Part shown: piece by piece, positions 3,015 to 63,746 of the stretch
Layout: every line of letters starts with the position of its first letter
How positions within the stretch are numbered: the stretch's first letter is position 1
Source of the DNA: Amoebophrya sp. A120
Lineage: Eukaryota; Protista; Dinoflagellata
DNA length: 64,000 nucleotides
Direction of reading: 5' to 3'
Assembly (NCBI GenBank): GCA_905178155.1
Contig: CAJINV010000008.1
Coordinates: forward strand, 310,001 to 374,000
Notes under the pieces: generated by a model
The model's input: the letters and a program-made list of their open reading frames with translations, nothing else
Database searches by the model: none
What the model was told of the DNA's origin: nothing
Position numbers and translations under genes: made by a program

Positions 3015-3276
3015 TATCAAATGTAAAAATGTCTGGGTCTGGAAGATTACCAGGTTTGTCATGCACATTTTGCATGACTCCTGATGTCTGTGATGCATGC
3101 CCTAGCATCACAGATTTTGTGAGGGCTTCCTGATGCCTATACCGCATGACAAATGCTCTTTCCGTGTAGCAAAACTTGGACTCTCTTTGCTGCTCATGCG
3201 ATACAGATTTTTTTAGAATCGAAAATCAGCATGACAAGTTGCATTCTTCCAGACCCAGACATTTTTACATTTGATA
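3015..3276. mobile_element. Introner-like TIR element, family A (262 bp)
   Basis: Perfect 32-bp TIR tatcaaatgtaaaaatgtctgggtctggaaga. TSD tccgt at 3010-3014 and 3277-3281. Close copy of 34694-34961. Host ORF not established. Confidence 0.92.
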
Positions 3277-3959: not shown

Positions 3960-6653
3960 TCACCGGCTTCGTACTTGTTCGCGATACGCTTGCAAGCAAC
4001 CAAGCAAAACGCTCGCACAACACAGGGCAAATGCCACTTGTGCGGGTCTCTGAAAGCACTGCTCCACCGGATGACAGAATTCCGCCGAGGGGTCTTGCTC
4101 CGCGTGCGCTTCGTCATACGCGTGTCCGGTTAGTCGAGCCATAAACTTCACCGCAACGGACATGAAGAAAACCGGGAAGGCAAAGCCAAAGACCATGTTC
4201 TCCTTCCCGAAGTTGCTCACCATAAATGCTGGAAGCGTCGCCCAGTTGGCACCGTAGCAAAGGCCCACGAGCAAAAGCCAAAAAGAAGACGGGGCCGAGG
4301 ACGACGCTGTCGCTGTCGGCGAGGCCGTCATCAGCCCGAAGACGCAAGCCGCCGCCATACCGGCCCCGGCCAACAGCATGAGTCTCGCAATTCTGCCCGG
4401 ATCTTTTAAGTCATTTCCGCCCACCGGTGCTGCGGAGTTCGTTGGGCCCCTGCGCTCTGCAGCAGGCGGACCACTACCTCCAGAAACAAGAACTACCGGC
4501 CGCAGGATGAAGTAATCGATGCAGAAGCCCGCGAACAAACGGCCGCCGGCGTTGCAGAAGCTCACGTGGGTGACCACCGCATCGCGAACGCTAGGAGCGT
4601 AACCGTACGCTCCCGTGATCAGCTTCAGATTCGCCATAAACAGGCCACTCCCAACGCACTGCGTCAGAATGAACTGGATCACGACGAAGTGAAACTTGGG
4701 CTCGCGATACAAGATGTCGCGCCATGTGAGAACCCCAGAAGGTGTGGCGGAGCTTGCAATCGATGCACTGGCACCAATTATCCCGGCAGATGGTACAATT
4801 CCAGTGCGATCGGCGATTCTTACCTGTGGTGCATCATGTTCATGATCATGAAGATCTTCAGCAGGAGGACCCCAATTGTAATCTTCATCATCGACCACTT
4901 CGTCCTCATGAAGAATGTAATCATTCGGATTTCTGGTTGCGCCCAGCATTTTCACGTGATTCCGTGCACCAAAAATGGTGGCAGTTGCTGGCTGCAGGAC
5001 GTTACTCGTCTTTTTACGTGCAGCACTAGATGACGAATGATCATATTTGTGTGCAAAAACCTGTGCGGAATTCGCGTTGCGATGCTCGTATGAACTGCAA
5101 AAGTATCGCACTAGTATAAATTGCATTACAAATTAGCCCAGCATTACAAATTTAATTTGTAATGCTGATTTACCTTGAGAACGAGATTTGTAATGCATAA
5201 ATGCAATTACTACGAGTGCGATACTTTTGCACAGGATAGCTCGCTCAGCTGCAGCTGCTCCCGTTCCTCCTCCAGCTGCGTTCGCGCGCGAGCAGCTGCT
5301 ATCCAAATAGAAAACGTTGTTAGTGTAAATTTGTAGTGCGCAACACGCAAGATGATTGCGTCTGTCATGCTTGCCATGCGTCATAGGGTCCATTAAAGGG
5401 TGTTTTCCCATACTATCTGCGCATGACAGGTTTTTGCTGTAATGCCAGACAAATTTGTAATGCTATTCCTCCAAAAAAGTTACACCTACAATGTTTTTTT
5501 CTTGGATAGCTGCTGGAAAGGTCGCAGTAGAAGAAGAAGCAGTAGTGATTACAGCTGCCCTAGTGTGGTCGTCCTCCTCCTCTTCGGTGTTTGTAGTTAC
5601 TACTGTGCTTATTGGAACGACTTGCAGAAAGACCGCACCCATGATAGCCGTGAAAGCCCAGATTACTCCCGTCCAGTAAATGAACGAGTGCACGCTGTTG
5701 TGCAAGATGTGTGTGTAGACGGAGTTCCATACCGCCGCGGAGAGACCGTAGCCAGCGGCGAGCACGCCAGTAGTGCGGCCGACACGCTTAGTTAGGAGGA
5801 CGCCCGTGTAAAGTCCGTTCTGGTAAAGTGTCACGGACCCGTGCTGTATCAAAAAGTAGAAAAACGCCATTAGGGTACTGGAGACAGATGGCTGTCGTAA
5901 AGGTTCTTTTCTCGCCTGCTGGAGCAAGAAGTTGTTTCTTGCGAAAGTTTGCGTGTCGCTGCCAAGCGCATCGTCCGCAACGAGTCCTCGCGTAAGCGTC
6001 GTCCCCGCGGCAGGGACTGGCGGCAAATGCATGTAAAAGAAAATGCTGCCAAATCCAACACAACAGAAACTGTAAACGCTCGAATAAAAGACGCCGAACT
6101 GGTGAAAGATTGCCCCAGAGAGGAACCCAACCTTCATCCGCGGGAAAATTTTCCTTCCTCGTTGAGGCTGCCATAGTACGCAGGTCGCAGAAAGAAACGC
6201 AATCTACTTGCGGCGTCGCGGTACTGGCAAGACGAAAAGCTGCAAAAAGTCACGTAGAAAACTACGAGTAGACAAGTCGACCGATCGATCCTGCATGCCT
6301 CGTGGCCAGCCACCTGATAAGTACGAGCATCGGCGTCAAGGTAGAAAATTTTCACAATGAATATGCCCCACGCCAATTTGTCCGGCAGAATACAATACGT
6401 CGACGTCTGCCGCTTTCCAGTGCAGCAGTGTCATCAGGTCCGTCTCGAGGCCTGCAAACATGTAAAGCGTGCCGCCACAAATAGCATTCCACAGACACAA
6501 ACCAAAGACCGACAGAGCCGCGATTTTATTCTTCTCGTCATGATATCCAAGCGCCGGCGCTGATGTTGCCGAAGACGAAGATGCTCCACCACTGTTGGCG
6601 GAGGTCGCGAGGACGCCTGTGCTGGCATGCAGCCAACGACTATCATACAGCAT
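3960..6653 (-). CDS. Major facilitator superfamily transporter (nodulin-like/Mch1-type), 4 exons
   Basis: Hydrophobic helices with motifs GGTLYMF, GQIG|VGFLSG, AAGYGLSAAVW, CNAGGRLFAGF, GLCYGANWATLP and GHAYD. Joined via a GT-AG intron (6132-6371) and two TIR introns (5300-5508, 5089-5238), giving continuous ...TFPAAARARTQLEEEREQLQLSEHRNANS... Confidence 0.8.
5089..5238. mobile_element. Introner-like TIR element, family B (150 bp), non-canonical intron of the MFS gene
   Basis: tatgaactgcaaaagtatcgcact ... agtgcgatacttttgcacaggata. TSD gctcg at 5084-5088 and 5239-5243. Excision with one TSD restores frame. Confidence 0.9.
5300..5508. mobile_element. Introner-like TIR element, family C (209 bp), non-canonical intron of the MFS gene
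   Basis: tatccaaatagaaaacgttgt ... acaatgttttttttcttggata. TSD gctgc at 5295-5299 and 5509-5513. Excision gives FPAA|ARART in frame. Confidence 0.88.
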
Positions 6654-30465: not shown

Positions 30466-33400
30466 TCACACGCCGCTGAGCAATCTGTAGCCTGTCCAAT
30501 CGGCAGGAGCGACGTAGTTATGTTGCTTCATGAAGTTCAGCAAACACTGCGAGGGACCGTCCACGGGTGCTTATCCTGATTAAAAACGTCCCCACACCAG
30601 AGTCAAGATGGGAAATCTGCTACACAAATTTACTAGCCTTCGTTAATTGGCATGACAAGTTTGTCCTCGTACGTGCAATCCTGTTTTAGCTAGTTCAGAA
30701 GCGTCACAGATCTAGCATAGCATGCTGATTCTAGCATCACAAATTCCAAAACACGACTAGAAAATCAAAATGCTTCTCATAGAGCTCCGCATGAGAAACT
30801 TCCTTGGCATGCAGAATTGCATGACAACTATGGGGTGGGGATGTTTTTACACGGAATAGTGCTTCGACCTTTTTCACCTGTGCTGCCGCTGCGCCGCGTT
30901 TGCTAGGACTCGCACCGGTACCCTCCGCGAGTCGCTTGCTCTTCTGTTTTGTGGTCGTTCAGTCGTGTAGCTGAACTGAATACGCATGGTAGCAGAGGCA
31001 AGAAAAACCAACATCAAGGTCGGTAGATCGTCATGCACGCATCGCCGGAAGAACCAAGTCCACTTGAAAAGGTTCAAATGTACTAAATGCGCAAAGATCA
31101 AGATGTAGTATACATAGTAATAGTTTTATTTACCGCAAACCACGCGAGGTCTTCTTCCTGTGACGGCTCTGGGACGTATTTTTGAAAGTCCTCCAACTTC
31201 TTCCTGGCAACCGTCCACTTATGGAAGCGTCAGGTTTGAAATCGTCAAAGTTGAAATAATTTGTAATGCATAAAATGCGACACAGAAAGTGACTCTATTG
31301 CAGAGGACCCACGGGAGGCAGATTATAGTCCTGGTAAGGGTCACAAGTTGGACTGCTAACTAGCATGACAGAAGGCAGCTCTTTGGCCCTAAACCGCATG
31401 ACAGACTCGCTTCCAGGACCGGGAAAATTTGTCACGCACCGACTACAAACTGTAGGTCTAATTGGTATGCGTTTTATGCATGACAAACTATTTCAACTTT
31501 GACGATTTCAAACCTGACACATCCGTACCACTCACCGCTTTCGTAGTTGACGAAGGCCATTCCGAAGCGATGATGGAATTCCGCTGTGAATTGCTCCGTC
31601 ATGAGCCGAATGTCCTGGTCCTCACAAAATTCGTCGAAGGGGACGTAGTTCTCGCTAAGCCGCTCTTCCTTCGTTTCCTCCCTCTGCAGCCGCATCTGAA
31701 ACTCCTCCTTGCGCGACAATTTTTGCCCCGTGAAGGTCGATATCTTTTGCTGGCCACCACGTGCGGCCGCGCCGCCTCCTACCGCGGCGCCCGATGCTGT
31801 GTTCCGAGCCCGCTTTTTGGGGCTCGGCGACGCAGACCCCGCCCCGTGTCTGCTTGGGCTGGTGGCCGCCGCCTGTAGCAATGTATTGCCACCAGGTACT
31901 GTGCCCGTTTCCGTCCGCCGCTGCCGCATGTTTTTCCGGTTCTTCGTATTGGGCGACTCGAAAAAGTTCGTGGGAGGTTGAAGATTTGTATGCTAGGACA
32001 GTTTTCCTCGGAGAACTTGCGACCATCAAGTAGAAGGTACCTTCTTCTACCAGAACTCTAACAACGCAACACAACTGTAAGTAGAGGTACTAGTAGCACC
32101 TCCAGCAATACTAAGCTCGTATCTGGACCAGACTTACTGTGAAGGAAGCGAGCCAGGCAAGACTAAGAAAAGTAAACCGTTAAAGAAGACATCATGATCA
32201 TGCACAACGAGGACAGGAGAGTTTTGCAGCATAGATCTTCAGGCAATTGCTGTCTAAGTCGAGGGTGTAGAGGTAGAAGGGCTTCTTGATCCCACTCACT
32301 AGCACGCGGTCCACGCGGCGAAGCTTTCGCCGGTACGGAGGAGTCACACAGTGGGCTAGGTGTTCGCTGATCAACAATGGCACACCGTACTGTTTTGTCG
32401 CGGCTTCCAGCTGGGCACTGAGATTTACCTGGAAGAATAAAATCGCGGAAAAGGATTTATACAGAAGTAGTTGCCGAAAAATCATGCGTGGGACGAGAGT
32501 CATTCATCCAAGGACCTTCCATATCAACAAGTCGTAAGGGTGCAAGTAGCAGCAGCTGCAGAAGGTGGAGGAAGAAATAATAGTTCCATCATGAAGTTGT
32601 ACGTGTGGCGAGAGGTAGCTGGCGTCCACTTTGAACTCGCTTCCGATAGCGCCTTCAATGGCCCATCCGCGGTGTAGTCCAAAACCCATTTTCACGCGGT
32701 AGTTCGGCATTCGATTGAGCAGCCCCTCGTGCAGGCGGTACGTCGCTAACACTGGGGACCGGTTGGTGGCGGCGATGATCCGTGAGAAGCACATCACCGC
32801 TAGTTCGCTGATCCGGCACGCCTCTCCGCGGTGAAGCTCCTCGTAGGAAATGTCGGACGACTTCGTGATGTACCCTAATCGCCACACTAGCAGAAACGCG
32901 TCACCGATGTTCTTGTTCGGAGATCCGCAGTGCGCATCCGTGACGGTGTGCACGATCTCGGAAATCTGATCGCATTTTTACATTGGAGCCTACGTACTAG
33001 ATCATTCAAGAGTATATTAACAGCACGCGAAACATCAAAAATCCTACTTATCCTTTTACTATTTGAGCAGGAGAAAGTAAAAACATCCCTTCCATACAAG
33101 AAACAAAGGCCGAGCCAGTTTTTGTACCCGATTGACGAAGAGCATGACACCGTCCTGAAGAATCTCCGTGGCGTCCGTGAAGTTTCTAATATCGCAAAAG
33201 CCAAAAATAGCGTCCATGTACTGACCATCAACCATGGTGTTTATTGCACTGGTTGTGTCCGAGTCCTTCATGTTGTGTCCGATCACTGCTGAGCCTGCTT
33301 CTCCAAAAGCGAGCGCGCAGAGACCCCCGAGTTTGATAATGGTTTTCTCCAGGATCACCGTCTCCATCAGCTTGGAGGACCCCGGATCGTCGTTCCAAAA

Positions 33401-36400
33401 GGCCACCAGAGCGTGCTTGATTTTCAGGATCCAGCGGATGAGAAAGAAGTTCGACAAAGAAGAGCCGCCCTCCTGCCTGTTTGATCGGCGGCCGCTTGCT
33501 TTATTTGCGCCGGTTGTACTAACGCTGGCATTATTGGTCGTACTGGAGACCATCGGCCCTTCCACGCCGGCGCTTTTGTCAACACCCGCATCCAGGACCT
33601 GGCCCGAACTGCTCCGATCGAACCTGGAGGACTGCGAAGTGTGGTGACGCACGTCGGACGGGTTTTTCCGGATTGTCGCCAGCCGCTGGATGTTTGTTTG
33701 CTGCACAAAGCTTGGCGACTTGTGGTCCAAGAGAGGCTCGTCGCCCCCTGCTATCTGCGCCCGCTTCTCTTTTGACGAGATCGGCCCACTGGTATTTCCA
33801 GTTGCGCCGGCCGTCGAGCTACTCGCGCTCCCGGTTCCCGTGATCATTCCTGTTTTTCCCTTGTTATTCATCTCCGCGTCGCGCCGGAGCTCTTCTTCTG
33901 ACATCGTATTCCCTCAAAATTATCCATCCCCGTGGTGCGCGTGCCCGTCTACTTTCTGCATGAAAAAAGAAGTCAATTTTGTATTTGTTTCGTTTACGTT
34001 TGTTGCATGCGAAACTTCTGCATGGGAATCGTTAATTTCCAGGGAATACATCCGGATCGCCTCGAAGGGGTTGGACCGGATCTTGCTCAGCCGCGTGATC
34101 ATGCGTTCTACGGGGTATAGCACCAGCTTGTTGGCGTCCTTCGCAAATAGCATGCTGCCAACCAGGAGGAGGAGAAGCACGAAAAAAGTCTGGAACATGT
34201 TGAAAACCGCCTCTAAGCTCGTCCAAGGAGTCAAATCGAAGTACCACACAAAGACCATGCTCTCCAACCTACAGGATTTTTGGATTACCGAATAGATCCA
34301 GATACTGTCTTGCATGGATAAACTAAAACTTTTTCATTTTCATTTTCTTGGGCCGACAAAAATGGCCATCTTTGCTTTTTCTACGTGTTAGAGAGGTAGA
34401 ACTTCCGCAGTTCAGGAGCGCAGGCAAAACAAAGGTGATAGATGAAGGAGAAGGAATGCTACAAGAAAAAAAACCTCTATTAATACTCTGGGTATTGCTG
34501 CCGCAGAAAGACGTCATCGGTATCACGACCGCACGCTTCGGACTCACAGATCATGGGCGCTACCAGTCCGATCTCGTTGTACCGCAGATCTTTCGGACAG
34601 CGCTTGTCCTGCGGGTGAGCAATGGAGGCACCATACCGGCGACGGATATAGGACTGGAAGAACAAGTCCACTTTTTCCTCGCAGTTCCCGTTCTATCAAA
34701 TGTAAAAATGTCTGGGTCTGGAAGATTGCCGGCTTTGTCATGCACATTTTGCATGACTCCTCAAGGTCAAGTCTGTAATGCATGCCCTAGCATCACAGAT
34801 TTTTAGAGGGCTTCCTGATGCCTATTCCGCATGACAAATGCTCTTTCCGTACTGCAAAATTTGGACTCTCTTTGCTGCTCATGCAATACAGATTTTTTTA
34901 GAATCCAAAATCAGCATGACAAGTTGGATTCTTCCCGACCCAGACATTTTTACATTTGATACGTTCCACACCTGCTTCAGATTTTCCTTGAACTCATCTG
35001 GGATAGCATTGGACTCGTACACTCCGTCCACGGAGGCACTCGGTTGGCGGGACGCCCGGTACTTTGCGTCCCAGGTGCCGCTGGGAAGCGCCCAGTGGGC
35101 CGAGTCGTTGTAGTAGCTGCTGTTCCCTAGCGTCGCGTGCTCGGCGATCTCCTGCCACTCTGCGTTTGCGGACGGCTGAAAGAAGAAACCCACCCAGAAA
35201 ACGCGATCCTTCACGCTATGGGGGTTTACCGAATACCCGCTGCCACTATCGTACGTGCCGTGCCAATTATGATAATACAGGAAATGCAGGTGCTTACCTA
35301 ACAGAAGATTGGTGGATTCAGGTTTCAGGATTATATCATGTCTTTCTTACGTAGCGACGATGAGTCAGTGCTGCGGCTTCATCTCGAGCTCAGTCTATTT
35401 CGTTCCACCGTGTGCACTAGGCAGCCTCGAGACGTGTCTAGTATTTGCGCGGCGTACAAACAAGCGTAAGTAAAACTTCGAAATTCAGCACTCACTCATA
35501 AGCTGCATACTTACGTTCGTAGGCGTTTCGTTCTGCGTCTCGTCGACGGATTTCTGCCTCCGTGGCGCTGGCGCCAGCGATGTGCACCTTTTTGACCTCT
35601 ATTAAGTATCGGCGAAACGAGTCCCAAATGCTATTCACCGAGTACGAAGCGGCGTCCATGTAGAGGTCTTTCGTAGAGAGTAACCCGTCGGACCGGAAAA
35701 GCGGCACCGCAATCAACATAACAAGAACCACCAAGATGACTCGTCGCGTGGTCATTTCTGACAGCTTTTTTCCCACGCGAGACTCCTCCACTTCATGTTC
35801 CTCGTCGTCGACGGCCGCGTCAGAGAACACCTGGCGCTCACCTGCGGAATTAATCATTGCAAAGTTCTTCCGATCTTCCACCAATCCCGCAAAGCTATGC
35901 TGGGGAGCTGGCATCTGCAAAACCAAAAGCTAGAAGTTGCATGCTCATTTGAAACAGAATGCCAATACTAGTAGCAGTAATTCCATAAGGAGCTCTACGC
36001 ACCACAACTACACTGTTTCTCTGCGTGCATCGTTGTGACGTCAGAAGTTTCGGGTAGAAGTTCTTGTGTCAACGAAACTTATCTTACCGGGCGGCAAGAG
36101 CATGTTCTGCTGCTCTCTTTCGCGCTTGCGCTTCCTCTCCAGGTGCGCTTTATAGAGTTTGAAGATCCTAACCAACCGAATGACTCGGATAACGCGGACT
36201 ACGCGGCCCATACGGGTTCCCATCCGGCTCGCACGCCCGACCCGCGCCACGCCGCCCCCTCCTTGCCCACCACCGCCCTCGTCCTCGGGGCTGGTGAAAA
36301 GCTCCTCCGCAAGCGTGGTGATGTCCAGCACGAGGGATAACGTCGACACGATGTCGAGATAGAAGAAGAACCCGCCGTAGTAGTCCGCCTTGCCCCAGGT

Positions 36401-40151: not shown

Positions 40152-43100
40152 CTAGTCTGCATCGTTTGTTCCACCTGGGCCAAGATGGTTTGGCGCGCCA
40201 GATTCGGGACTAACTTCCTCATCGGCCTCATCCCCGGGACTCCCAGGCGCCTGGGTGCTCACGTTATCCTCGAACTGCTGCTGTTGCTCCTCGTACTGAC
40301 CTTCTTCAGCATCATCGACGGCCAGTCGCTGGTATTCTGCTTGGCACCACCTTAGGACATGGACAAGTTGAACGCATTACAAAGCAACTTTCACCTAGAC
40401 AGAACAAACAAAAATGTACAGGTTCGCTCAGGGGAAAATCTCGAGGGAAAGCGAAACTACTGATCAGAAGCTGAGTCAAAGGCGGCAGAAATTATCAAAA
40501 ACGTCCGCACCTGTCCCACTCTGACAGGCCGTCCCCGGTCGTCTGGTGCATCTGAAAGGGATCTCGGTGTTCCCAATGAATGAATTTTTGCAGACTGATG
40601 AAGATGCTGAAGAATGTCGAAGCCGCTTTTCGCTGGCGCAGAAAGTCGCCCAGACTGTAGACGTAATCTGCGCTCGCGGGATTCGCCCGAAAGCCAAACA
40701 GCGGCGACTGGAAGGGAGCGGCGATGTGGTGCAGCTGTTCTTGACGTCCTAGTCCTACCTCTCGTCTTTCCTCTTCTTCCTTCATCAAGTGGCGCTTCAC
40801 CTGGGGCTGCAACATATCATGAACTTGACAGGCAATGTCCGCAAACGCGATTGGCTCGTACTGGAGGTAAGAGAACCGCTGCGCCATCTCCTCGAAGAAG
40901 TGAAACAGCTCCCATGGCCGGAGAAACCCATCGCTGTCCAAGTCCATCACGCGAAACCAGTAGCTAATGCTACGCTCGTTCAGCCTGTCCTGGTCACAAA
41001 GGAGAAAGAAAATAAAGTCCTCGTAGCACATACGGCCCTCGTGCCCGGAGGTGAATCTGTGGTGAAGTATTTTTTTTTTTTGCGATCAACACCGGTAAAA
41101 AAGTGTCTTCATCTTCTTTCGCATCAACGCAAAGCACGACGACGGGGGCAGCCGCACAGCGAGCCAGAGGCACATCAGCGCAGTATTGCTGCAGCAGTAG
41201 CTGTTATTGTTAATGAATCATTCATAGGGTAAAAATAAAAAGTAAAAGTGATGGTGCTATGTATAAATATTGATTCCACGACGGACTTTCCACATAAAAA
41301 TAGCAGCAGGGCGAAGACAGACAGAAACAGTTCGAAACAACACTATTCAGATTGAGTTAGAGTACTTTCTCGGGATTTCGGAGAAAATCCGATCGACGGC
41401 CCGTCGCGACAGAGCGTGCGTATCGTACTTGAGCAGGTCGTCTTTGTCAAGCAGGCAATCGTGATCATTGTCGAGCTCCCAGAAGGTGCAGTAGATCACG
41501 TAGAAATGCTCGTAGGAGAAGAACTTGCGAATCATCTTCATGTCTTCAATTTGATCGAGCTCGAGCCAGGTGTCTACGATCGATGGGCGCCGGCGCCGCA
41601 GGTCATTCAAGCTGATGAGCCCATCGTCTTTCACATTGTGGATAAAGTAGATCCGCGCAATCACCGTGTCTGCGTACTTCTCTTGGAACTCAGGGGTGTT
41701 CTGAAGTGTTTTTTGAAGAGAAGAGTTGAAAAGCATTCTGCTTGTGCGCACATCGTAGTGCTCGCCCCATTCACATTCGTCTATACACGATCATGCGCAT
41801 GCGTAATGATATCTTCGACGTCGCATAAACTATATGGAATCTCTTGGTTGAGTTCCAAAAACAGAGGGCACCATCCAAAAATACCTTCAAGAATTCCAAT
41901 CCCGGGTGTTCTTGCAGCACGGTGTCGAGCAAAGCCCGGAAGTCGTCTTTGGTGAGTTTTGGGTCCTCTCGTTCGTTCAAAGCGACGCCACCGCGGGCGA
42001 TGTAGAAAAACGACAAATGGTTGTCGTCTGGGTCGCAGTACAGACTGCAGTAATGCTCGAACGCCTCCAGAGGGACGGCGATTTCGGCTTCCGCGGGCAC
42101 GTGCTGCTGAGATCCGTAGAAGTTTCGCAGCAGCTGGTCCCACACCCGCTTGGCTAAGTACTTGCTGAGATGTAGGAACTTGTTGAGGAAGGGATGCAGG
42201 TCTGCGGGTCTGCGAAACACATGCTGTTGCTTGTTCGGTGTCGCGAAGTGATCTTCGGCAATGCGTTGCAGCTGGAACAGCTGCTCCTCGTTCAGCGCCG
42301 TGGGCCGCATTTTGCGCGGCTCGAAGAACCGCGGGAGCTCGACTTTCTGTTCTGCGCTGAGTCCCGCCAGTCCGCCGCTCTGCTGGGTTAGCTGGTAGGC
42401 AAGGGTCTTTTCCAGCGGAATTGGCGGGTGCTTGCTTTTATGAACTGTAAAAATGTCTGGGTCTGGAAGAATCCAACTTGTCATGCTGATTTAGGATTCT
42501 AAAAAAATCTGCATTGCATGAGCAGCAAAGGGAACGCAATTTTTGCTACGCGGAAAGGGCATTTGTCATGCGGAATAGGCATCGCGAAACCCTCAAAAAA
42601 TCTGTGATGCTAGGGCATGCATCACAGACATCATGGCCAATGCAAAACATGCATGACAAGTCTCAGAATCTTCCAGACCCAGACATTTTTACATTTGATA
42701 GCTTTGCTCCTGTGCGGAAAAGTGAAAGTCATGTTCGGGATCGTACGCTCCTTCAGCGAACTGCTGTTGCCCACCAAAGCCCTCGTCGTCAGCTCCCGGT
42801 CCAGCCGCACCCCCTCCCGGCTCGAAGTTGTCTACTCCTGCGCCATGCTGGTGTTGCTGCGTTCGTTGTTCCTCTGGCTGAGAAGACGGCGGACCCGCAG
42901 CGTGTTGAGGCGATGTAGCCACCGCTTCTAACTCATGTTCTGATGATGTGCCGTGTTGAAGATGAAGACCAGCTGCCCCTGGGTCCTGTTGCGTAGAAGC
43001 ATACGAGTGGTCTTGTAGCGAACCCCCCTTGTTCGCAGCTGCGTGTTGATCTAGGACTTGCGCCCCTGCGGAAGAAGTTGTACCGGTCAGAATTGGGTGC

Positions 43101-48314: not shown

Positions 48315-48777
48315 GTCAAAGGCAAAACTTTCGAAGCAAATAATCGTCTAAAGTGAGGTCTTCTGGAAATCGAAATCAACTTCAGAAACGACCATACATT
48401 AACCTGCAACAAGGCTAGTAGTTGTAGTGCGATGCAACGAAGACAAAGATCGTCGTCTTGTTCCTGGTGTGCGAATACAAAGCTCTGATCCGAAGAATCT
48501 CAAGGTGTAGAAATCAACATGATCGACTCCATCTTGTTCATCTGATCAGGGACTACCTTCGATCGTCCATCCTGTGATCGTATTATGTACCAAGCAGGGG
48601 AAGAACAGACAAGGTCCAGCCTCCCGATGTATCACTGAGTTTCCACGTGTCTCTTCAATGACTTTGAAAGCTCAATTCGCAGTAAACTAAAAGCTTTTTT
48701 GCGGTTTGCCTCCTGCGCAAGATCGATGAAGATCAGAAATTCTTTTGCTTTTGCCTCTTCGTTTCTATGATATTCGT

Positions 48778-49922
48778 CTAGATCTCATCGTCGTGGAGTA
48801 GCATATTCGGGATTCCTTTCTCCACAGGGAATTCGCGACCAGATTCTGGACAAACCAAGCTCCCGTCGATTAAAAGGACATCGAGCATATGGATTGCAAA
48901 AATGTCTGGGTCTGGAAAATTCTGAGACTTGTCATGCACGTTTTGCATGAGCCATGAGGTCTGGAATGCGAGACCTACTTAGCATGACAGATTCTGTGAG
49001 ATCCGTATCATGCCTATCCTGCATGAGAAACTTCCTCTCAACTTGGTAAAAAGTGGACAGCTTTTGGCATTCATGCAACACAGATTTTTGCACGATCCGG
49101 AATTAGCATCACAAGTTGCAACTTTCCAGACCCAGACATTTTTACATTTGATAGAGCAGGATCGTGTGCAATTTTTCCAGCAATGCTTCATCGTCCTCCC
49201 AGTTGTCTGGAAGCTCTGCTTATGAAATGTAAAAATGTCTGGGTCTGGAAACTTGTAATGCTATGTTGGGAATAGTGAGTGCTCTGTAATGCACAGCCAA
49301 GCATGAGAAATATCTGCGCTATTTTGTGTTGCTTTGTTCGCATGAGAAACTGCGTTTTTGCATGACAGGCAAGACAGAGGGTCTCTTCTTGGACACGCAT
49401 CACAAAGTTTTTTGTCATGCCAGGCAAGCATGACAAATCTCGCAATCTTCCAGACCCAGACATTTTTGCAATCCATACTGCTGGAAGCACGGGAAGCTCT
49501 GGCACAGGCTCGCTCTCGTTGTTGTCCGACATGTTCTCTGGACCACCATCTTCTCGTACAATGCTGCAATGCCGGATGTCCCTGTCAAGTTTTGTTCAGA
49601 AATAATTTTTTGTTACATCATTTCCATCTCACAAAAGCGATACATAGGAGGTCCTTTTCTTCAATCGAGAATCACGCCTGAACGAATGAAAGTGAAACTT
49701 GATGTGATATTAAATGCAAACCGAAAAGACAAAACCGGTAAAAATATACTCTATCGCTTTCAGCAGTGCCGGGTATTCGACTTTTCGGACCATGGCAGCG
49801 ATAAAAACTGCGTTGAACTCCGTTTCCTCGTATACAATCTTACTGGCTTTTATTCTGAGAGGGAACCCGTTCTGGACGCCTTTTTTGTTGCACTGCAGCA
49901 TGTTATGAGTCAGGAGCCTCAT
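48778..49922 (-). CDS. TRM112: Multifunctional methyltransferase activator subunit TRM112, 4 exons
   Basis: MRLLTHNMLQCNKKGVQNGFPLRI...VEYPALLKAI, then a GT-AG intron (49564-49749). After excising two TIR elements it reads ...LPAELPDNWEDDEALLEKLHTILLDVLLIDGSLVCPESGREFPVEKGIPNMLLHDDEI*. Confidence 0.95.
48888..49153. mobile_element. Introner-like TIR element, family A (266 bp), intron of TRM112
   Basis: TSD gagca at 48883-48887 and 49154-49158. Excision gives HTILL|DVLLIDG. Confidence 0.95.
49221..49477. mobile_element. Introner-like TIR element with family A ends (257 bp), reverse orientation, intron of TRM112
   Basis: TSD ctgct at 49216-49220 and 49478-49482. Excision gives LPVLPA|ELPDNW. 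Confidence 0.95.
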
Positions 49923-50610
49923 TTTGACCAATCAATGTTCTTGTAAATGAATAGCTTTGAGTTTGAGTTTGAGGTTCGATAATGTCGCAGAAAAAAATAA
50001 GCCGATTCAAAGCTTAGTTCGTTAGACTACGCGTTCTTTTACTTTTGTAAAGCACCAAACTTGTTCCACATTGATTTCGCTGTCACGGGTTGGGATCTGT
50101 CACGTCAGAATGAAAATGATGCTTTAGCATTTAACGAATAATCCCCACGATCGGAACGCCTAGCGTAGAAACTCTCGTCGATCGCAAGGGGAAGAAGAAG
50201 ATCTTCAACATCACAATAAGATATATTCTAGGCGGTGCAGCCCGTCATTTCAGACTTTGTGTTGGATCTTACCTGTTTCACTTTGGATCGATTCGTGTGT
50301 CTTTTCACAGATTGAAACCGATAAAAGTCTTGACCTACAGGTATTTTGACTTGATCTGTCTGTTTGTTTTGTGTTGTTCTTCTCATGGAACCGTCAGCTG
50401 CAGCAGTATCTTCTGCGACAGCAGAACGTGATCTTATTTGTCTGGTCTCGCTTTGTAGTGATGAACAATTCCACGTAGGTCAGCACCTCGGTAAGCAAGC
50501 GAGAATGAGGATCTTTCTATCGTTCGACTTGGACTAAAATTGAAATTCGAAAAAGCGTACATGAGGCGTTTGTCGTCATGGATGCCGCTCCGGGCGCGAT
50601 TTAGTACACC

Positions 50611-52570
50611 TTATGTCTGGTCCTCAGATAATTCGGCGCCCGCGCATACCGTTTTGCCCCTCATGAAGCGCAAAATGCGTGGGAGTGCGTCTTTCGCGTT
50701 CATCCGCAGCGGTGTGTGACCCTCTGGTACACTCCAGTGATCCACATTTACGCGGATCAGGTTGGCTCGCCCGCTAGCGCCGCCGCAAATCTCCATTGCT
50801 CGAAGGGTCTGCGCGCGGGCCCGGCTGGTGTATTGCTTTTCCTGGTCGTCGTCGTACTTCGCTGCCTCAAGTTCCAAAATTGCCACAGTCCCACGCCGCT
50901 GGTGGGTAAGGTGTTGCGCTAGTATCAAATGTAAAAATGTCTAGGTCTGGAAGATTAAAACTTGTCATGCTAAATCCGAATATATGTAAAAACCTGTGTT
51001 GCATGAGTGCCAAAAGCTGCCCAATTTCGACCAGGTTGGGAGGTAGTCTCTCATGCGGGATAGGCATGGCAGAGACCTCACAGACTCTGTCATGCTCGGC
51101 GGCGCATTCCAGACCTCGTGGGTCATGGAAAATCTGCAAGACAAATCTCGCAATCTTCCAGACCCAGACATTTTTACATGTCATAGCTAGGTGAAGAAAG
51201 CGATAGTAGTTTTCCTCCGCCTCCTCGTATTCTTCAGACCGAAAGAATTTCGTTTGTTTTTTACATCCATCTTTCGTGGACGAGCGGGTTCTGACGTCAA
51301 CATTCGGACCTACGTTGGTTCCTGACGTCTGGCACCCAGGACAAACCGGCAACACGCACCGCCAATCCGGGTCGTAAACCACCTTCGGCGCGTCATCTCC
51401 AACCGCAGCCGCACGACTTCTAGTTTCCTGCATGGCACTGGGTTTCGGGTATTTCAGAGGAGACAGGTCGGCGAAGTTTTTGCTTTCGTTCCATGTTGGG
51501 AGATTATCGGTAAATCTGTTCTTGGAGGGACTTGCGTCAAACGAGTTCTTTGTACTCGCCGTTGTTTTCTTAGCAAGATGAACGTCTTTGTAATGTTGTG
51601 TGTTTCTCTTTCCCTCTTCTAGTTCCGCGGCCAGCAACGCGCAGCCGGTGCTGACTGCCTGCATGGCCTTGGTTGCTCTTGTAGTTTTCGACAAAATTCC
51701 GCGTTCCCAGTCAATATGTGCTTCTAGAGCTCGCCACGTCGGCTCTGCTGGCCACACGTGGCCACAGTTCGAGCATTGTAAACGTGCCACGTCACCGCGC
51801 GCAGCGTGAATAATCTGCTCGGCTGGCTGGTGCACGAACCCGCCGGCAGGAGAGGCAACAGGAGGCGTCTCATTCGGATTCGTCAGCAAGTCGGTACAAT
51901 TTTCCACCACGCCTTGTCGAAAGTACCACTGCTCGCAAGGGTCATTGTGCCAGATGAAGAAGCGCTTTTTCTGCAGTATCTGTCCCAGAACGCGATGCAA
52001 GTACGTTCGCCCGCATGCACTTGTAGATATTGCAGCTCCTGGCGCGCCGCGACCTTGTTGTGTGTTTGCTTTCGCAGCGTGCGAGCCGATCTCGCTGGCA
52101 AGGTTCCGCAGAACTTTCGATGCAGCCGGAACGTCCGGATAAAACACTTCACCCGAGGCGGATCCCGTTCTTCGTGTCTCCTCCATAGTACTACAGTCGA
52201 CTCCGCCGTAGTAGAAGCCGGAGTGCAATTGCTGCAGACTAGGTAAATTGGCCACTGCCGACGCCGCTGCCGCTACACTGCCGGTCGGGGAGACATTGTC
52301 TGAGCGCCGCTGATACCGCTGGTCCTCGCCATCTTGCCGCATCCAAACGGTGTGCCGAGCGAGAAACGGAAACAAATACAGTGGGCTGTGTCGCAGCTCT
52401 TCAGATGAAAATGCCTCCGCCACGCTGCTGATGCCTGCCCAGTCGCGCGCCAGTCCCGGGTACCGGTCCTCAAAACCATCATCGTCGCTCGCCAGTGACT
52501 TTCCGACGATGACGAGGACGCAGCTGGCAGTGGCAATCAAATCAGCTGCACGATCGAGTAGGGCGTCCAT
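50611..52570 (-). CDS. Divergent Sir2/sirtuin-like protein (2 exons)
   Basis: LDRAADLIATASCVLVIVG; RGDVARLQCSNC; LPVCPGC..VGPNV; after excising element 50923-51185, TVAILELE and LIRVN. This is the motif order of the Sir2 fold. Confidence 0.65.
50923..51185. mobile_element. Introner-like TIR element, family A (263 bp), reverse orientation, intron of the sirtuin-like gene
   Basis: TSD gctag at 50918-50922 and 51186-51190. Excision gives YRFLHLA|QHLTHQRRG. Confidence 0.93.
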
Positions 52571-61475: not shown

Positions 61476-63746
61476 TTAACCCTCACCACCACCAGCTGCT
61501 CCGCCGACTTCCTCCCCGAAGTCCCACGGCGTGCCGGTGCAATTCTGCATGGTTACCAGGGTATACCTGGTTATTTTTTTTCCAAGCGTTAACAAGGTTC
61601 ACTGAGTGATAGACAAAACGGCTCCTCTGAAGTACTTCCAGGAATTATGAGGAATGCGGGGGAAGTAGAAAGCTTAAGCTATGAAAAAAAAAGTATGGCA
61701 CTCGTTCGTGGCAATTGCGACCAGCTCCACACCGTCTGATGTTCTGAGCCGTACATTCTGTAGCTCGGATTCTGGACCGGGTACCAATTCTCGGAGGCTC
61801 TTCTTACAGTTTTGCACGTAGTCCATCATCAGTGCTGATATCCTGAACGAGATTTTTTCCTTTTTCATTTTCTACTTCATCATTTGCGTACTAGCAATTG
61901 GCGATCCGTCATCAATGACACGAAGATTCATTCGTCGCAAATACATACTAATCAAAATCGGCTGTAGCACATCAACAGGGACCCATCGCGCGACCCCGTA
62001 AGTGGGTCTCGAAAGATAAAATATGAACCACCCCTACCGGAAACCCGGGTAGAAATGCCTGGGCCGGCAATTTGGCTGGAAGTCAAGGTAGAAACGCCAG
62101 GGAGTATGGCAATCCCGCCGGTCCCCGTTAGCCGGCCCCCTAGCTCAAAAAGGTACCCGCATCGCGCGCGCAGCGCGCGCGAAGAAAAATTTCGCATGGC
62201 ACACGGCGACACAAGCAGCCGCTCTTGCTTCCTTTGAAGGGCGGGGGTGTGAGCGCGCATGGGCATGGGGCATGCGCGCCACGAATTACTTCTAATCCTG
62301 GAAAGGATTCCCCAGGCGCGCGGTGCGCGCCGGAAAAATGGCAAAACCCCACAGGAGGTCGAAGGAGAAACACTGTACCGGGCCCGGCATTGATTCTTGG
62401 AAAGCTCTGCCCTAGCACAGACGGGCCTGCCCTGCCCCTAAGCAGCCGAAAACCATGTTAACGCGCGCGCGCGCGCGGAATTTTTTCTCAGCTACCAGCT
62501 CCGAATCCGGTTCCCAGTCAGTTTTTGCCGTTTTACCGGCGGGGCCGTAGCAACAAAATAAAAGCGCGCGAGCCAAAAAAGAATTTTTGCAAACCAGACG
62601 AGAACGAGAAGCGCCCCCAGGGGGATTCCGGGGGGGCTTTTTCGTGTTTGATTTTTCGATCGGCAAGAAAAACCACGGCGGGCCCGGGCCCGCCGGGTAG
62701 GCCGGCCCGGCGGACGGAGGGCGGGCCTCAGCAGAAAAAGTTGCCCGCCGAAGCCGCGCGCGAAGCGCGCGGACTAATTTTTTTGGCCAGCAGGCAGCGG
62801 CGATGCCCCGGCCCTCCACGCAGGACACACGCAGCCCGCTAGGAATTTGCACACGCGCGGGCCTGCGCGCTCGCTGCCACACGCCTGTAGGGCGCGCGCG
62901 CCCAATAGCCTGAAGACACCGCCGCGCGCTTTTGTGGCTGCACACCCCGGCGTCCCCTAGCGGCCCTGTGGATGCACGTGCGCCGCCTCGGTCAACCCTT
63001 CCACAGCACCACAAGGACTAGCTTCATTCAAAGGCGTGAAGGAACTCCGCGCCCACGTATTGAAGCTGCAAAGCAGCCACGGATGCCGCTCGGCCTCGGC
63101 GCGGATTTTTTCCAAAAACAATAAAAACGCACGCCGGCCGACCGCGCGAGGGTAGGCGTGCATAAGCTGCGCCACTGTCTCGCGTGTAGGAGGGTTCTGC
63201 GACCATGTTCACCGCGGGGAGTTTTCTCTGCACGACGGAAATTTTTTACGTGTGGCAAAGTTTTCTCTGTGCGGGTTGGACTTTTCTCTGTCGGTTGATT
63301 TTTTATTTTTTTTTTCTAGACCCACTTACCTGCCTAGACAAAAAAAACATAGCACAGCAAGCAGGTATCGACCAGACCCAGAGTATCAGTATCGAGTCGC
63401 AAAAAATTACATTGTAAATACATGACAGCGCGGTCGTAGGTCACGTGCTCGGTGTCCCATTTGCACGGTATGCCGTCCGAGTTCATCATTACATATCCGA
63501 TGACTGTTGGGTACCTGATAATTGTTGTTTTGCCTTTTTTCGCCCTCGTGTTTAAATGAACCTAAAACTACGCTCGCACAGTCTCCGCATTAACGTGCGG
63601 GTGCGATGCTGCCTCTTTCGTGCTAGTGACCAAAGGATTAGGATTCGAAATCGAAGTCGAGACATAAAAAGCCATCGAGCAAATCAGTACTCCGTCTGGT
63701 AGGCCTTGAGAATACTCTCAACATCACTTGTCTGGCCCCCCGCCAT
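61476..63746 (-). CDS. Dynein light chain roadblock/LC7 family protein, 4 exons
   Basis: MAGGQTSDVESILKAYQTE|YPTVIGYVMMNSDGIPCKWDTEHVTYDRAVM|ISALMMDYVQNCKKSLRELVPGPESELQNVRLRTSDGVELVAIATNE|YTLVTMQN...*. GT-AG introns; the second is 1579 bp (61843-63421). Confidence 0.85.
61998..63329. mobile_element. Putative 1.3-kb non-autonomous TIR element inside roadblock intron 2
   Basis: Inverted ends gtaagtgggtctcgaaa (61998) and tttctagacccacttac (63329). The interior has a very different composition, with (CG)n runs alternating with A/T tracts, and no credible ORF. No clear TSD. Confidence 0.6.

What the first reader, a model, noticed from the sequence alone, without database searches (positions are those of the whole stretch)
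48883..49482. Tail-to-tail introner pair in TRM112 whose outer ends match each other better than their own partners
Seen: two oppositely oriented elements flank a 67-bp segment (49154-49220) encoding the conserved LEKLHTILL. Both outer ends read tatggattgcaaaaatgtctgggtctggaa (30-nt perfect inverted match). Both inner ends read tat(c/g)aaatgtaaaaatgtctgggtctggaaa. Pairing by best complementarity would drop the exon and shift the frame by 62 nt, yet only the TSD-matched pairs (gagca/gagca, ctgct/ctgct) rebuild TRM112. Inference: partner choice must depend on proximity, co-transcriptional folding or TSD identity. The unit could also move as a composite transposon carrying host exon sequence.
Basis: partly seen in the sequence, partly recalled or inferred. 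Interest (0 to 1): 0.8.

Follow-up and report, generated by a model that had tools for sequence, protein, structure and literature searches.

The report
Two introners that ignore better partners
In a marine parasite's TRM112 gene, two mirror-placed copies of a known transposon-like intron are each cut out exactly although their ends are predicted to pair better crosswise, which likely means the first intron's ends are locked together while the RNA is still being made.

Summary
Observation confirmed. The locally spliced gene gives a 147-aa protein identical to an Amoebophrya sp. A120 record. Both elements are published A120-type introners (TAT-N7-AAA inverted ends, 5-bp duplications; PMC7789003). 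RNA contigs of four runs from two studies carry both local joints (271 and 262 nt); no skip joint appears in the rows shown (120 rows hidden). The folding conflict is real: crosswise pairing is predicted 34 kcal/mol more stable, and the nearest ends are the wrong pair. It is also generic: 15 of 15 inverted pairings of the window's six family copies behave so (median -44.6), and a DNA run holds other loci with two family ends 28-39 nt apart. The skipped mRNA would stop 7 nt from the normal stop, so decay is unlikely to hide it. The middle exon is single-copy, so a moved composite has no support. Likely mechanism: early, protein-held commitment of the upstream hairpin within about 95 nt of transcription, with cuts at fixed offsets. 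Known element class, but a useful natural test of an unsolved splicing mechanism. The scan's notes list similar introns in other genomes; none of those shown covers cross-pairing.

The parts
48644..50081 (-). TRM112 transcript (CDS 49922 to stop 48778-48780, 147 aa)
   Evidence: 737-nt contig of run X5 laid in four pieces without mismatch; poly(T) loose end at 48658 in X4 and X6; product identical to P0001
49750..50081 (-). Exon 1 (5' UTR and first 58 codons)
   Evidence: matches TRM112 residues 1-58
49582..49749 (-). Canonical GT-AG intron, 168 nt
   Evidence: joint in X4, X5, X6, X9
49483..49581 (-). Exon 2 (boundary with E2 slides within the TSD)
49478..49482 (.). TSD of E2, outer copy (CTGCT on +)
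49221..49477 (-). Introner E2 (first on the transcript; arm a begins at 49477, arm b ends at 49221); removed with one TSD as 262 nt
49154..49220 (-). Middle exon with one TSD copy at each end; 62 nt kept in the mRNA; encodes ELPDNWEDDEALLEKLHTILL
   Evidence: single-copy depth in DNA run X1
48888..49153 (+). Introner E1 (second on the transcript, opposite orientation; arm c begins at 49153, arm d ends at 48888); removed with one TSD as 271 nt
48883..48887 (.). TSD of E1, outer copy (GAGCA on +)
48644..48882 (-). Last exon (C-terminal 34 aa and 3' UTR)
3015..3276 (+). Same-family copy used as control (TSD TCCGT)
34694..34961 (+). Same-family copy used as control (TSD CGTTC)
42439..42700 (-). 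Same-family copy used as control (TSD GCTTT)
50923..51185 (-). Same-family copy, closest relative of E1 (82%), TSD GCTAG

Best explanation
Two independent insertions of one Amoebophrya A120 introner family sit in opposite orientation 67 nt apart in TRM112, each is removed from the mRNA with exactly one 5-bp duplication, and the partners are likely chosen first-come: the upstream element's hairpin would form and be clamped by the splicing machinery before the second element is transcribed. Shown: anatomy, exact local removal, removal in both orientations, no GT-AG in any register. Predicted: the upstream hairpin (a-b) is the best fold of the nascent RNA until 94 nt past its 3' end, then the inner cross helix (b-c) takes over, and the full-length RNA ends in the crosswise fold; once E2 is gone, E1 folds on itself (P 0.999). 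Inferred: a protein must hold or process a-b within those few seconds, since the naked strand exchange climbs only about 6-8 kcal/mol; cuts lie at fixed offsets from the TAT..ATA ends, summing to 5 nt, so the duplication need not be read. The better cross match is a by-product of inverted same-family copies, falls at end positions 4-10 that own partners usually leave unpaired, and has no function.
For: Local joints 271 and 262 in RNA contigs of X4, X5, X6 (one sample) and X9 (a second study), none in DNA run X1 among the rows shown. Crosswise fold favoured by 34.2 kcal/mol at 37 C and 41.6 at 19 C, so equilibrium pairing of the finished transcript cannot be what picks partners. Nascent folding gives a-b first and alone; switch point 92-100 nt in 8 of 8 shuffles of the exon. 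E1 unambiguous after E2 removal. No canonical dinucleotide pair in any of 6 registers for either element, and an available GU..AG frame around E2 (263 nt) is not the form seen. Own-end mismatches among 13 window elements: 33 of 91 at positions 4-10, 1 of 39 at 1-3, 7 of 130 at 11-20. End pairing is required for analogous Euglena introns and SOS splicing (PMC12501133; PMC12779559).
Against: No splicing intermediate, order of removal or protein factor was observed. All informative RNA data are assembled contigs, which drop rare variants; three raw-read runs held only 5, 3 and 1 partial reads on element ends. The window of about 95 nt is short and the exchange barrier low on one estimate (6-8 kcal/mol; a direct-path estimate gave 20-28). 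In Euglena, nonconventional introns are removed late, after spliceosomal ones, and single-intron intermediates are rare (PMC6221363), which argues against removal during transcription though not against early clamping. The data fit end-by-end sequence recognition equally well. Folding is a two-dimensional model of naked RNA.
Confidence: 0.5

Rival explanations
1. End-by-end recognition: a modified spliceosome (or other protein system) reads TAT-N7-AAA as a 5' end and TTT-N7-ATA as a 3' end and joins each 5' end to the next 3' end, as in any multi-intron gene. The hairpin is a transposon relic or a helper, not the partner-choosing step.
For: Motif at 23 of 26 ends in the window across several families; nearly all spliceosomal proteins and U2, U4, U5, U6 were found in A120 (PMC7789003); explains indifference to a 34 kcal/mol wrong fold.
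Against: U1 snRNA not detected and boundary dinucleotides are arbitrary; own ends stay complementary at positions 11-20 (7 mismatches of 130), though transposition alone could keep that; the four motifs would be buried in helices in either fold.
Confidence: 0.27
2. TSD proofreading: both folds may form, but ligation or strand exchange needs identical 5-mers on the two sides of the stem, so crosswise hairpins (AGCAG versus TGCTC on the transcript) are unproductive and are unwound until the matched pair forms.
For: 12 of 13 window elements keep a perfect 5-bp TSD and the 13th has 4 of 5; only TSD-matched joints are seen; needs no kinetic race.
Against: One TSD copy is coding and the copies may be young, so perfect TSDs are expected anyway; fixed-offset cutting explains exact repair without reading them; only part of A120 non-canonical introns carry such repeats (PMC7789003); no such chemistry is described in the papers read.
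Confidence: 0.12
3. Leaky choice: the crosswise fold is spliced in a real share of transcripts, giving a skipped mRNA and a 62-nt exon circle, as inverted Alu pairs do in animals; assemblies show only the survivor.
For: Crosswise fold dominates at equilibrium; competition of pairing within and across introns drives back-splicing in human cells (PMC11263572); contigs drop rare variants, poly(A) libraries miss circles, and 120 joint rows were hidden.
Against: The joint table of X4 (6 rows, none cut off, gene depth 135.8, rows down to depth 2.4) has no skip joint. The skipped mRNA would end 7 nt before the normal stop in the last exon (and the sequence), so nonsense-mediated decay is unlikely to remove it (general knowledge of NMD, recalled). 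A 92-nt RNA contig identical to the E2 interior exists in X6 but says nothing on order.
Confidence: 0.09
4. The pair is, or can act as, a composite transposon that carries the middle exon between the two outer ends; or the elements are cut from DNA rather than RNA.
For: Outer ends are a perfect 30-bp inverted pair and the family is very abundant in DNA run X1.
Against: Different TSDs on the two elements show two separate insertions, with no duplication around the whole unit; interiors are only 47% alike, the lowest among 15 pairs; middle exon at single-copy depth and no joined form in X1 among the rows shown; no second copy in the window; excision would destroy the gene's middle exon.
Confidence: 0.02

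Closest known systems
Introner elements (non-canonical introns with inverted and direct repeats) of Amoebophrya sp. A120 (Farhat et al. 2021, PMC7789003; abstract, sections 11, 12, 16, passages and supplement passages read, figures not seen)
   Same: Same organism by the protein record; ends TAT + 7 variable nt + AAA; 3-5 nt direct repeats; no GT-AG; about 240 nt mean length; RNA-supported removal; 29,850 such repeated introns reported.
   Different: No difference in the elements. The text read proposes an end-to-end hairpin and does not treat competition between neighbouring elements ('adjacent' and 'exon skipping' 0 hits in the main text); this locus shows that the equilibrium hairpin would pick the wrong partners.
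Euglenid nonconventional introns (PMC12501133 abstract and passages; PMC6221363 abstract and section 14; PMC11282704 passages)
   Same: Non-GT-AG ends, end pairing, free spacer between the junction and the paired motif, TSD-like repeats, exact removal, unknown machinery.
   Different: Different motif (N3CDG / CH'GN5-6, purine after the junction); pairing tested genetically there, not here; removal is late and yields intron circles there, unknown here.
SOS splicing of DNA transposons in C. elegans and human cells (PMC12779559; abstract, main text parts 1-2 of 4, discussion)
   Same: Transposon with inverted ends removed from an exon at the RNA level, junctions not GU-AG.
   Different: SOS splicing is imprecise (many sites, indels) and sequence-independent; here one exact junction per element is seen and a family-crossing end motif is conserved. 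A pure pattern reader of paired ends would be expected to take the outer pair. AKAP17A, CAAP1 and RTCB were not testable here.
Competing inverted Alu pairs within and across introns (PMC11263572, passages)
   Same: Same topology: pairing across an exon competes with pairing inside each intron.
   Different: There the splice sites are canonical and cross pairing promotes circles; here the repeats are the intron ends themselves and no skipped or circular product was seen.
Composite transposons such as Tn10 (recalled, no call)
   Same: Two inverted copies of one element around a passenger segment.
   Different: No TSD around the unit, two separate TSDs, passenger single-copy.

Membership tests
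Amoebophrya A120 introner element | Inverted repeat between the intron's 5' and 3' ends | tested here: met
   26/30 and 27/30, positions 11-30 perfect in both
Amoebophrya A120 introner element | End motif TAT, seven variable nt, at least AAA | tested here: met
   4 of 4 ends; definition in PMC7789003 section 11
Amoebophrya A120 introner element | Direct repeat of 3-5 nt at the boundaries | tested here: met
   GAGCA and CTGCT, 5 of 5 each
Amoebophrya A120 introner element | Removed from mRNA without GT-AG ends | tested here: met
   joints in four RNA contig sets; no canonical register
Amoebophrya A120 introner element | Repeated family, no transposase inside | tested here: met
   six copies of 257-268 nt in the window; very high summed depth on the ends in X1; too short for a transposase (inference from length)
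Amoebophrya A120 introner element | Assignment to one of the 1,954 published A120 families | not testable with these tools
   the supplement held as text gives counts only and no match to the end motif
SOS splicing substrate | Imprecise excision at several sites with indels | tested here: not met
   one exact junction per element in four contig sets; contigs hide minor forms
SOS splicing substrate | Dependence on AKAP17A, CAAP1, RTCB | not testable with these tools
   no genome held; terms absent from the supplement text
Euglenid nonconventional intron | N3CDG / CH'GN5-6 code | not tested
   not scored formally; a different conserved motif is present
Composite transposon | One TSD around the whole unit | tested here: not met
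   TSD length 0 for 48888-49477
Composite transposon | Passenger copied elsewhere | tested here: not met
   single-copy depth in X1; no 14-mer of the exon elsewhere in the window; whole genome not searchable
TRM112 (PF03966) | Sequence match to TRM112 | tested here: met
   single exons fall below the Pfam cut-off (20.7 and 11.9 bits against 22)

The most novel reading that the evidence does not exclude
Amoebophrya excises introners by a spliceosome-independent reaction that checks the identity of the two target-site copies, an RNA-level equivalent of precise transposon excision by direct-repeat matching; close inverted pairs like this one survive in a conserved gene only because crosswise hairpins fail that check.
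Probability: 0.12. Interest if true: 0.85.

Novelty: new member of a known kind. Interest (0 to 1): 0.42.

Why it matters
How Amoebophrya removes tens of thousands of introns without GT-AG ends or detectable U1 is open (PMC7789003, PMC11282704). The standing picture is an end-to-end hairpin. This locus shows that picture cannot work at equilibrium: the wrong pairing is far more stable, yet the mRNA is right. Because such pairs should number in the tens to hundreds in the genome (rough), existing A120 reads can separate kinetic commitment, motif-driven joining and TSD proofreading without genetics. The elements themselves are known and the locus is not unique, which caps the interest.

Tried and rejected
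Raw-read runs X11-X13 did not cover the gene (5, 3, 1 partial reads on element ends): no evidence either way. Roy et al. 2023 (Curr Biol) is not held and was not read. Rejected: assembly artefact (X1 contigs match 48500-48910, 49132-49246 and 49453-50950 without mismatch, and RNA gives the same exon order); DNA-level excision (no joined form in X1 among rows shown); simple proximity; local duplication of one element to make the other (interiors 47% alike; E1's closest relative is the copy at 50923, 82%). Gene conversion between the outer ends was considered for the shared TATGGATTGC end (2 of 12 ends in the window): not excluded, but 43 and 33 X1 contigs run off this end at 49477/49478 into other flanks, which suggests a common end variant. 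Low-depth RNA joints inside E2 (75-82 nt) most likely come from other family copies. The copy at 50923 had no flanking RNA cover in X5, X6, X9: untested. My first two position counts used wrong coordinates for one element; the corrected count is. The 26 X1 contigs joining an end like 49153 to an end like 49221 have unknown spacer length and end type is judged on at most 30 nt, so they show neighbours, not close neighbours. Literature searches for a description of cross-pairing between neighbouring introners listed none by title or abstract start; subscription papers, most figure content and bioRxiv supplements were not visible.

Full report
Observation. Over the first 30 nt the outer ends match 30/30, the inner ends 29/30, and each element's own ends 26/30 and 27/30. 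The outer arm runs on to 63 nt at 86% and the inner to 38 nt at 92%. Six copies of this family lie in the window, each with a perfect 5-bp TSD. Their alignment shows two distinct ends, and E1 and E2 are in opposite orientation.

Gene and organism. The gene is on the minus strand. Exons joined as the RNA shows give 147 aa, identical to P0001, which its source names Amoebophrya sp. A120 and which carries PF03966. First and last exons match solved TRM112 chains. The middle exon aligns with three of five homologs, the A25 protein among them. Farhat et al. describe A120 introners as non-canonical introns with inverted repeats starting TAT, seven variable bases and at least three A, direct repeats of 3-5 nt, 29,850 copies in 1,954 families, and no detectable U1 (PMC7789003). 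My scans found 13 such elements of several families in the window; 12 of 13 have a perfect 5-bp TSD and 23 of 26 ends fit the motif. The elements are therefore members of a published class.

RNA and DNA evidence. Contigs of X4, X5 and X6 (one sample; RNA by the tool's guess, supported by loss of a GT-AG intron and a poly(T) end in X4 and X6) and of X9 (a poly(A) metatranscriptome from another study) all carry three joints: 271 nt (E1 plus one TSD), 262 nt (E2 plus one TSD) and a 168-nt GT-AG intron. X4's joint table had 6 rows, none cut off, and no skip joint; one search showed 15 rows and hid 120. Contigs drop rare variants, and the three raw-read runs did not cover the gene, so a few percent of skipping is not excluded. 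In run X1, which covers introns and intergenic DNA evenly and so behaves as DNA, the joined forms are absent from the rows shown, and the middle exon lies between both inner ends in one contig at depth 26.1 against 27.7-28.8 for the flanks. Removal is at the RNA level, works in both orientations, and uses no GT-AG, GC-AG, GA-AG or AT-AC register. A GU..AG frame of 263 nt exists around E2 but is not the form seen.

Is the conflict real? On the transcript the arms come in the order a, b (E2), exon, c, d (E1). The full pre-mRNA folds a-d and b-c with probabilities 0.999 and 0.98, and a-b and c-d near 0. The crosswise fold is 34.2 kcal/mol below the best local fold at 37 C and 41.6 at 19 C. The two TSD copies at the exon's ends are complementary and extend b-c. 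With the observed 5-nt geometry, a-d would give an mRNA 62 nt shorter and frameshifted (124 aa) and b-c a 62-nt circle. The shifted stop lies 7 nt before the normal stop in the last exon (read from the sequence), so nonsense-mediated decay would probably not hide it (recalled rule). Proximity favours b-c, the wrong pair.

Is it special? No. Putting every pair of the six copies into the same two slots favours the crosswise fold in 15 of 15 tail-to-tail cases (median -44.6 kcal/mol; this pair -38.9 in that set-up), 14 of 15 head-to-head (median -46.5), and only weakly in tandem (medians -5.9 and -4.8; 11 and 15 of 15). The extra matches within 30 nt lie at positions 4-10, where own ends mismatch in 33 of 91 positions across the 13 elements, against 1 of 39 at 1-3 and 7 of 130 at 11-20. 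The identical outer 10-mer is the only unusual point (largest 30-nt excess of 15 pairs), and other X1 contigs seem to share that end. At this window's density and a 125-Mb genome, about 55 inverted pairs within 100 nt are expected, 14 at half and 2 at one sixth of that density; one such gap among six copies in 64 kb has P 0.048. X1 shows 3 contigs with 28-39 letters between two family ends among 12 rows shown of 24, and 26 contigs that join ends like 49153 and 49221 over an unknown spacer. A second close pair of unrelated families (5089-5238, 5300-5508) has no cross-pairing.

Mechanism. Folding the growing RNA, a-b is the best structure until 94 nt past the end of b, then b-c replaces it; shuffling the exon leaves the switch at 92-100 nt (8 of 8). 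With E2 removed, E1 pairs on itself at 0.999. Handing b from a to c base by base costs only 6-8 kcal/mol (a direct-path estimate gave 20-28), so folding order alone is probably not a lasting trap. I therefore favour early protein-held commitment of a-b, with cuts at fixed offsets that sum to 5 nt (0.5). At usual elongation rates (recalled) the window is a few seconds. Rivals are end-by-end motif recognition with next-end joining (0.27), TSD proofreading (0.12), leaky crosswise splicing (0.09) and composite or DNA-level movement (0.02). The first two are not separated by anything I could run. Late removal of Euglena's nonconventional introns (PMC6221363) counts against removal during transcription by analogy.

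Comparison. It is an A120 introner pair. It works like Euglena nonconventional introns (pairing required, free spacer, exact; PMC12501133) more than like SOS splicing, which is triggered by any paired ends and is imprecise (PMC12779559). The topology is that of competing inverted Alus (PMC11263572). Gozashti et al. report tens of introner introns in single Amoebophrya genes and selection against poorly spliced introners (PMC12130899 and PMC9860276, passages). Five searches listed no paper on cross-pairing between neighbouring introners; Roy et al. 2023 could not be read, and figures of the A120 supplement were not visible.

Verdict. Real, correctly described, and confirmed by RNA; a known element class in an expected configuration; no sign of a composite transposon. 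Its value is as a natural test showing that the equilibrium hairpin cannot choose splice partners in Amoebophrya. Interest 0.42.

Noticed in passing
window 5089-5238 and 5300-5508: A second pair of introners, of two other families, 61 nt apart; removing the elements with one TSD each opens a minus-strand frame of about 620 codons; no cross-pairing predicted. No RNA laid.
   Followed up: partly
window 33907-34048: Introner with an imperfect TSD (CATCG / CATCC); RNA across it would fix part of the cut register.
   Followed up: no
window 31220-31527: Element with a perfect 5-bp TSD and long inverted ends that lacks the AAA of the A120 motif at both ends.
   Followed up: no
window 49216-49220 and 49154-49158: The TSDs of E1 and E2 share AGCA when read in each element's orientation (GAGCA, AGCAG), so the exon's ends pair; the other four family TSDs are TCCGT, CGTTC, AAAGC, CTAGC. 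Target preference or chance.
   Followed up: partly
window 49216-49478: A GU..AG frame of 263 nt encloses E2 but the RNA shows the 262-nt non-canonical removal.
   Followed up: partly
window 48888-48950 vs 49415-49477: E1 and E2 have the least alike interiors of the six copies (47%) yet identical outer 30 nt; shared end variant or conversion between the arms.
   Followed up: partly
window 50923-51185: Family copy inside a long minus-strand frame (about 580 codons after removal) with no flanking RNA cover in X5, X6, X9.
   Followed up: no
window 49485-49580: Exon 2 encodes a segment (REDGGP and an acidic linker) shared with 3 of 5 homologs that seems to lengthen the protein relative to the 125-aa solved chain (147 aa).
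   Followed up: no
window 49543: One X6 contig leaves exon 2 at 49543 into unrelated sequence; probably an assembly chimera.
   Followed up: no
window 61998-63329: Inverted pair of about 26 nt beginning GTAAGTGGGTCT, 1.3 kb apart, no TSD found.
   Followed up: no
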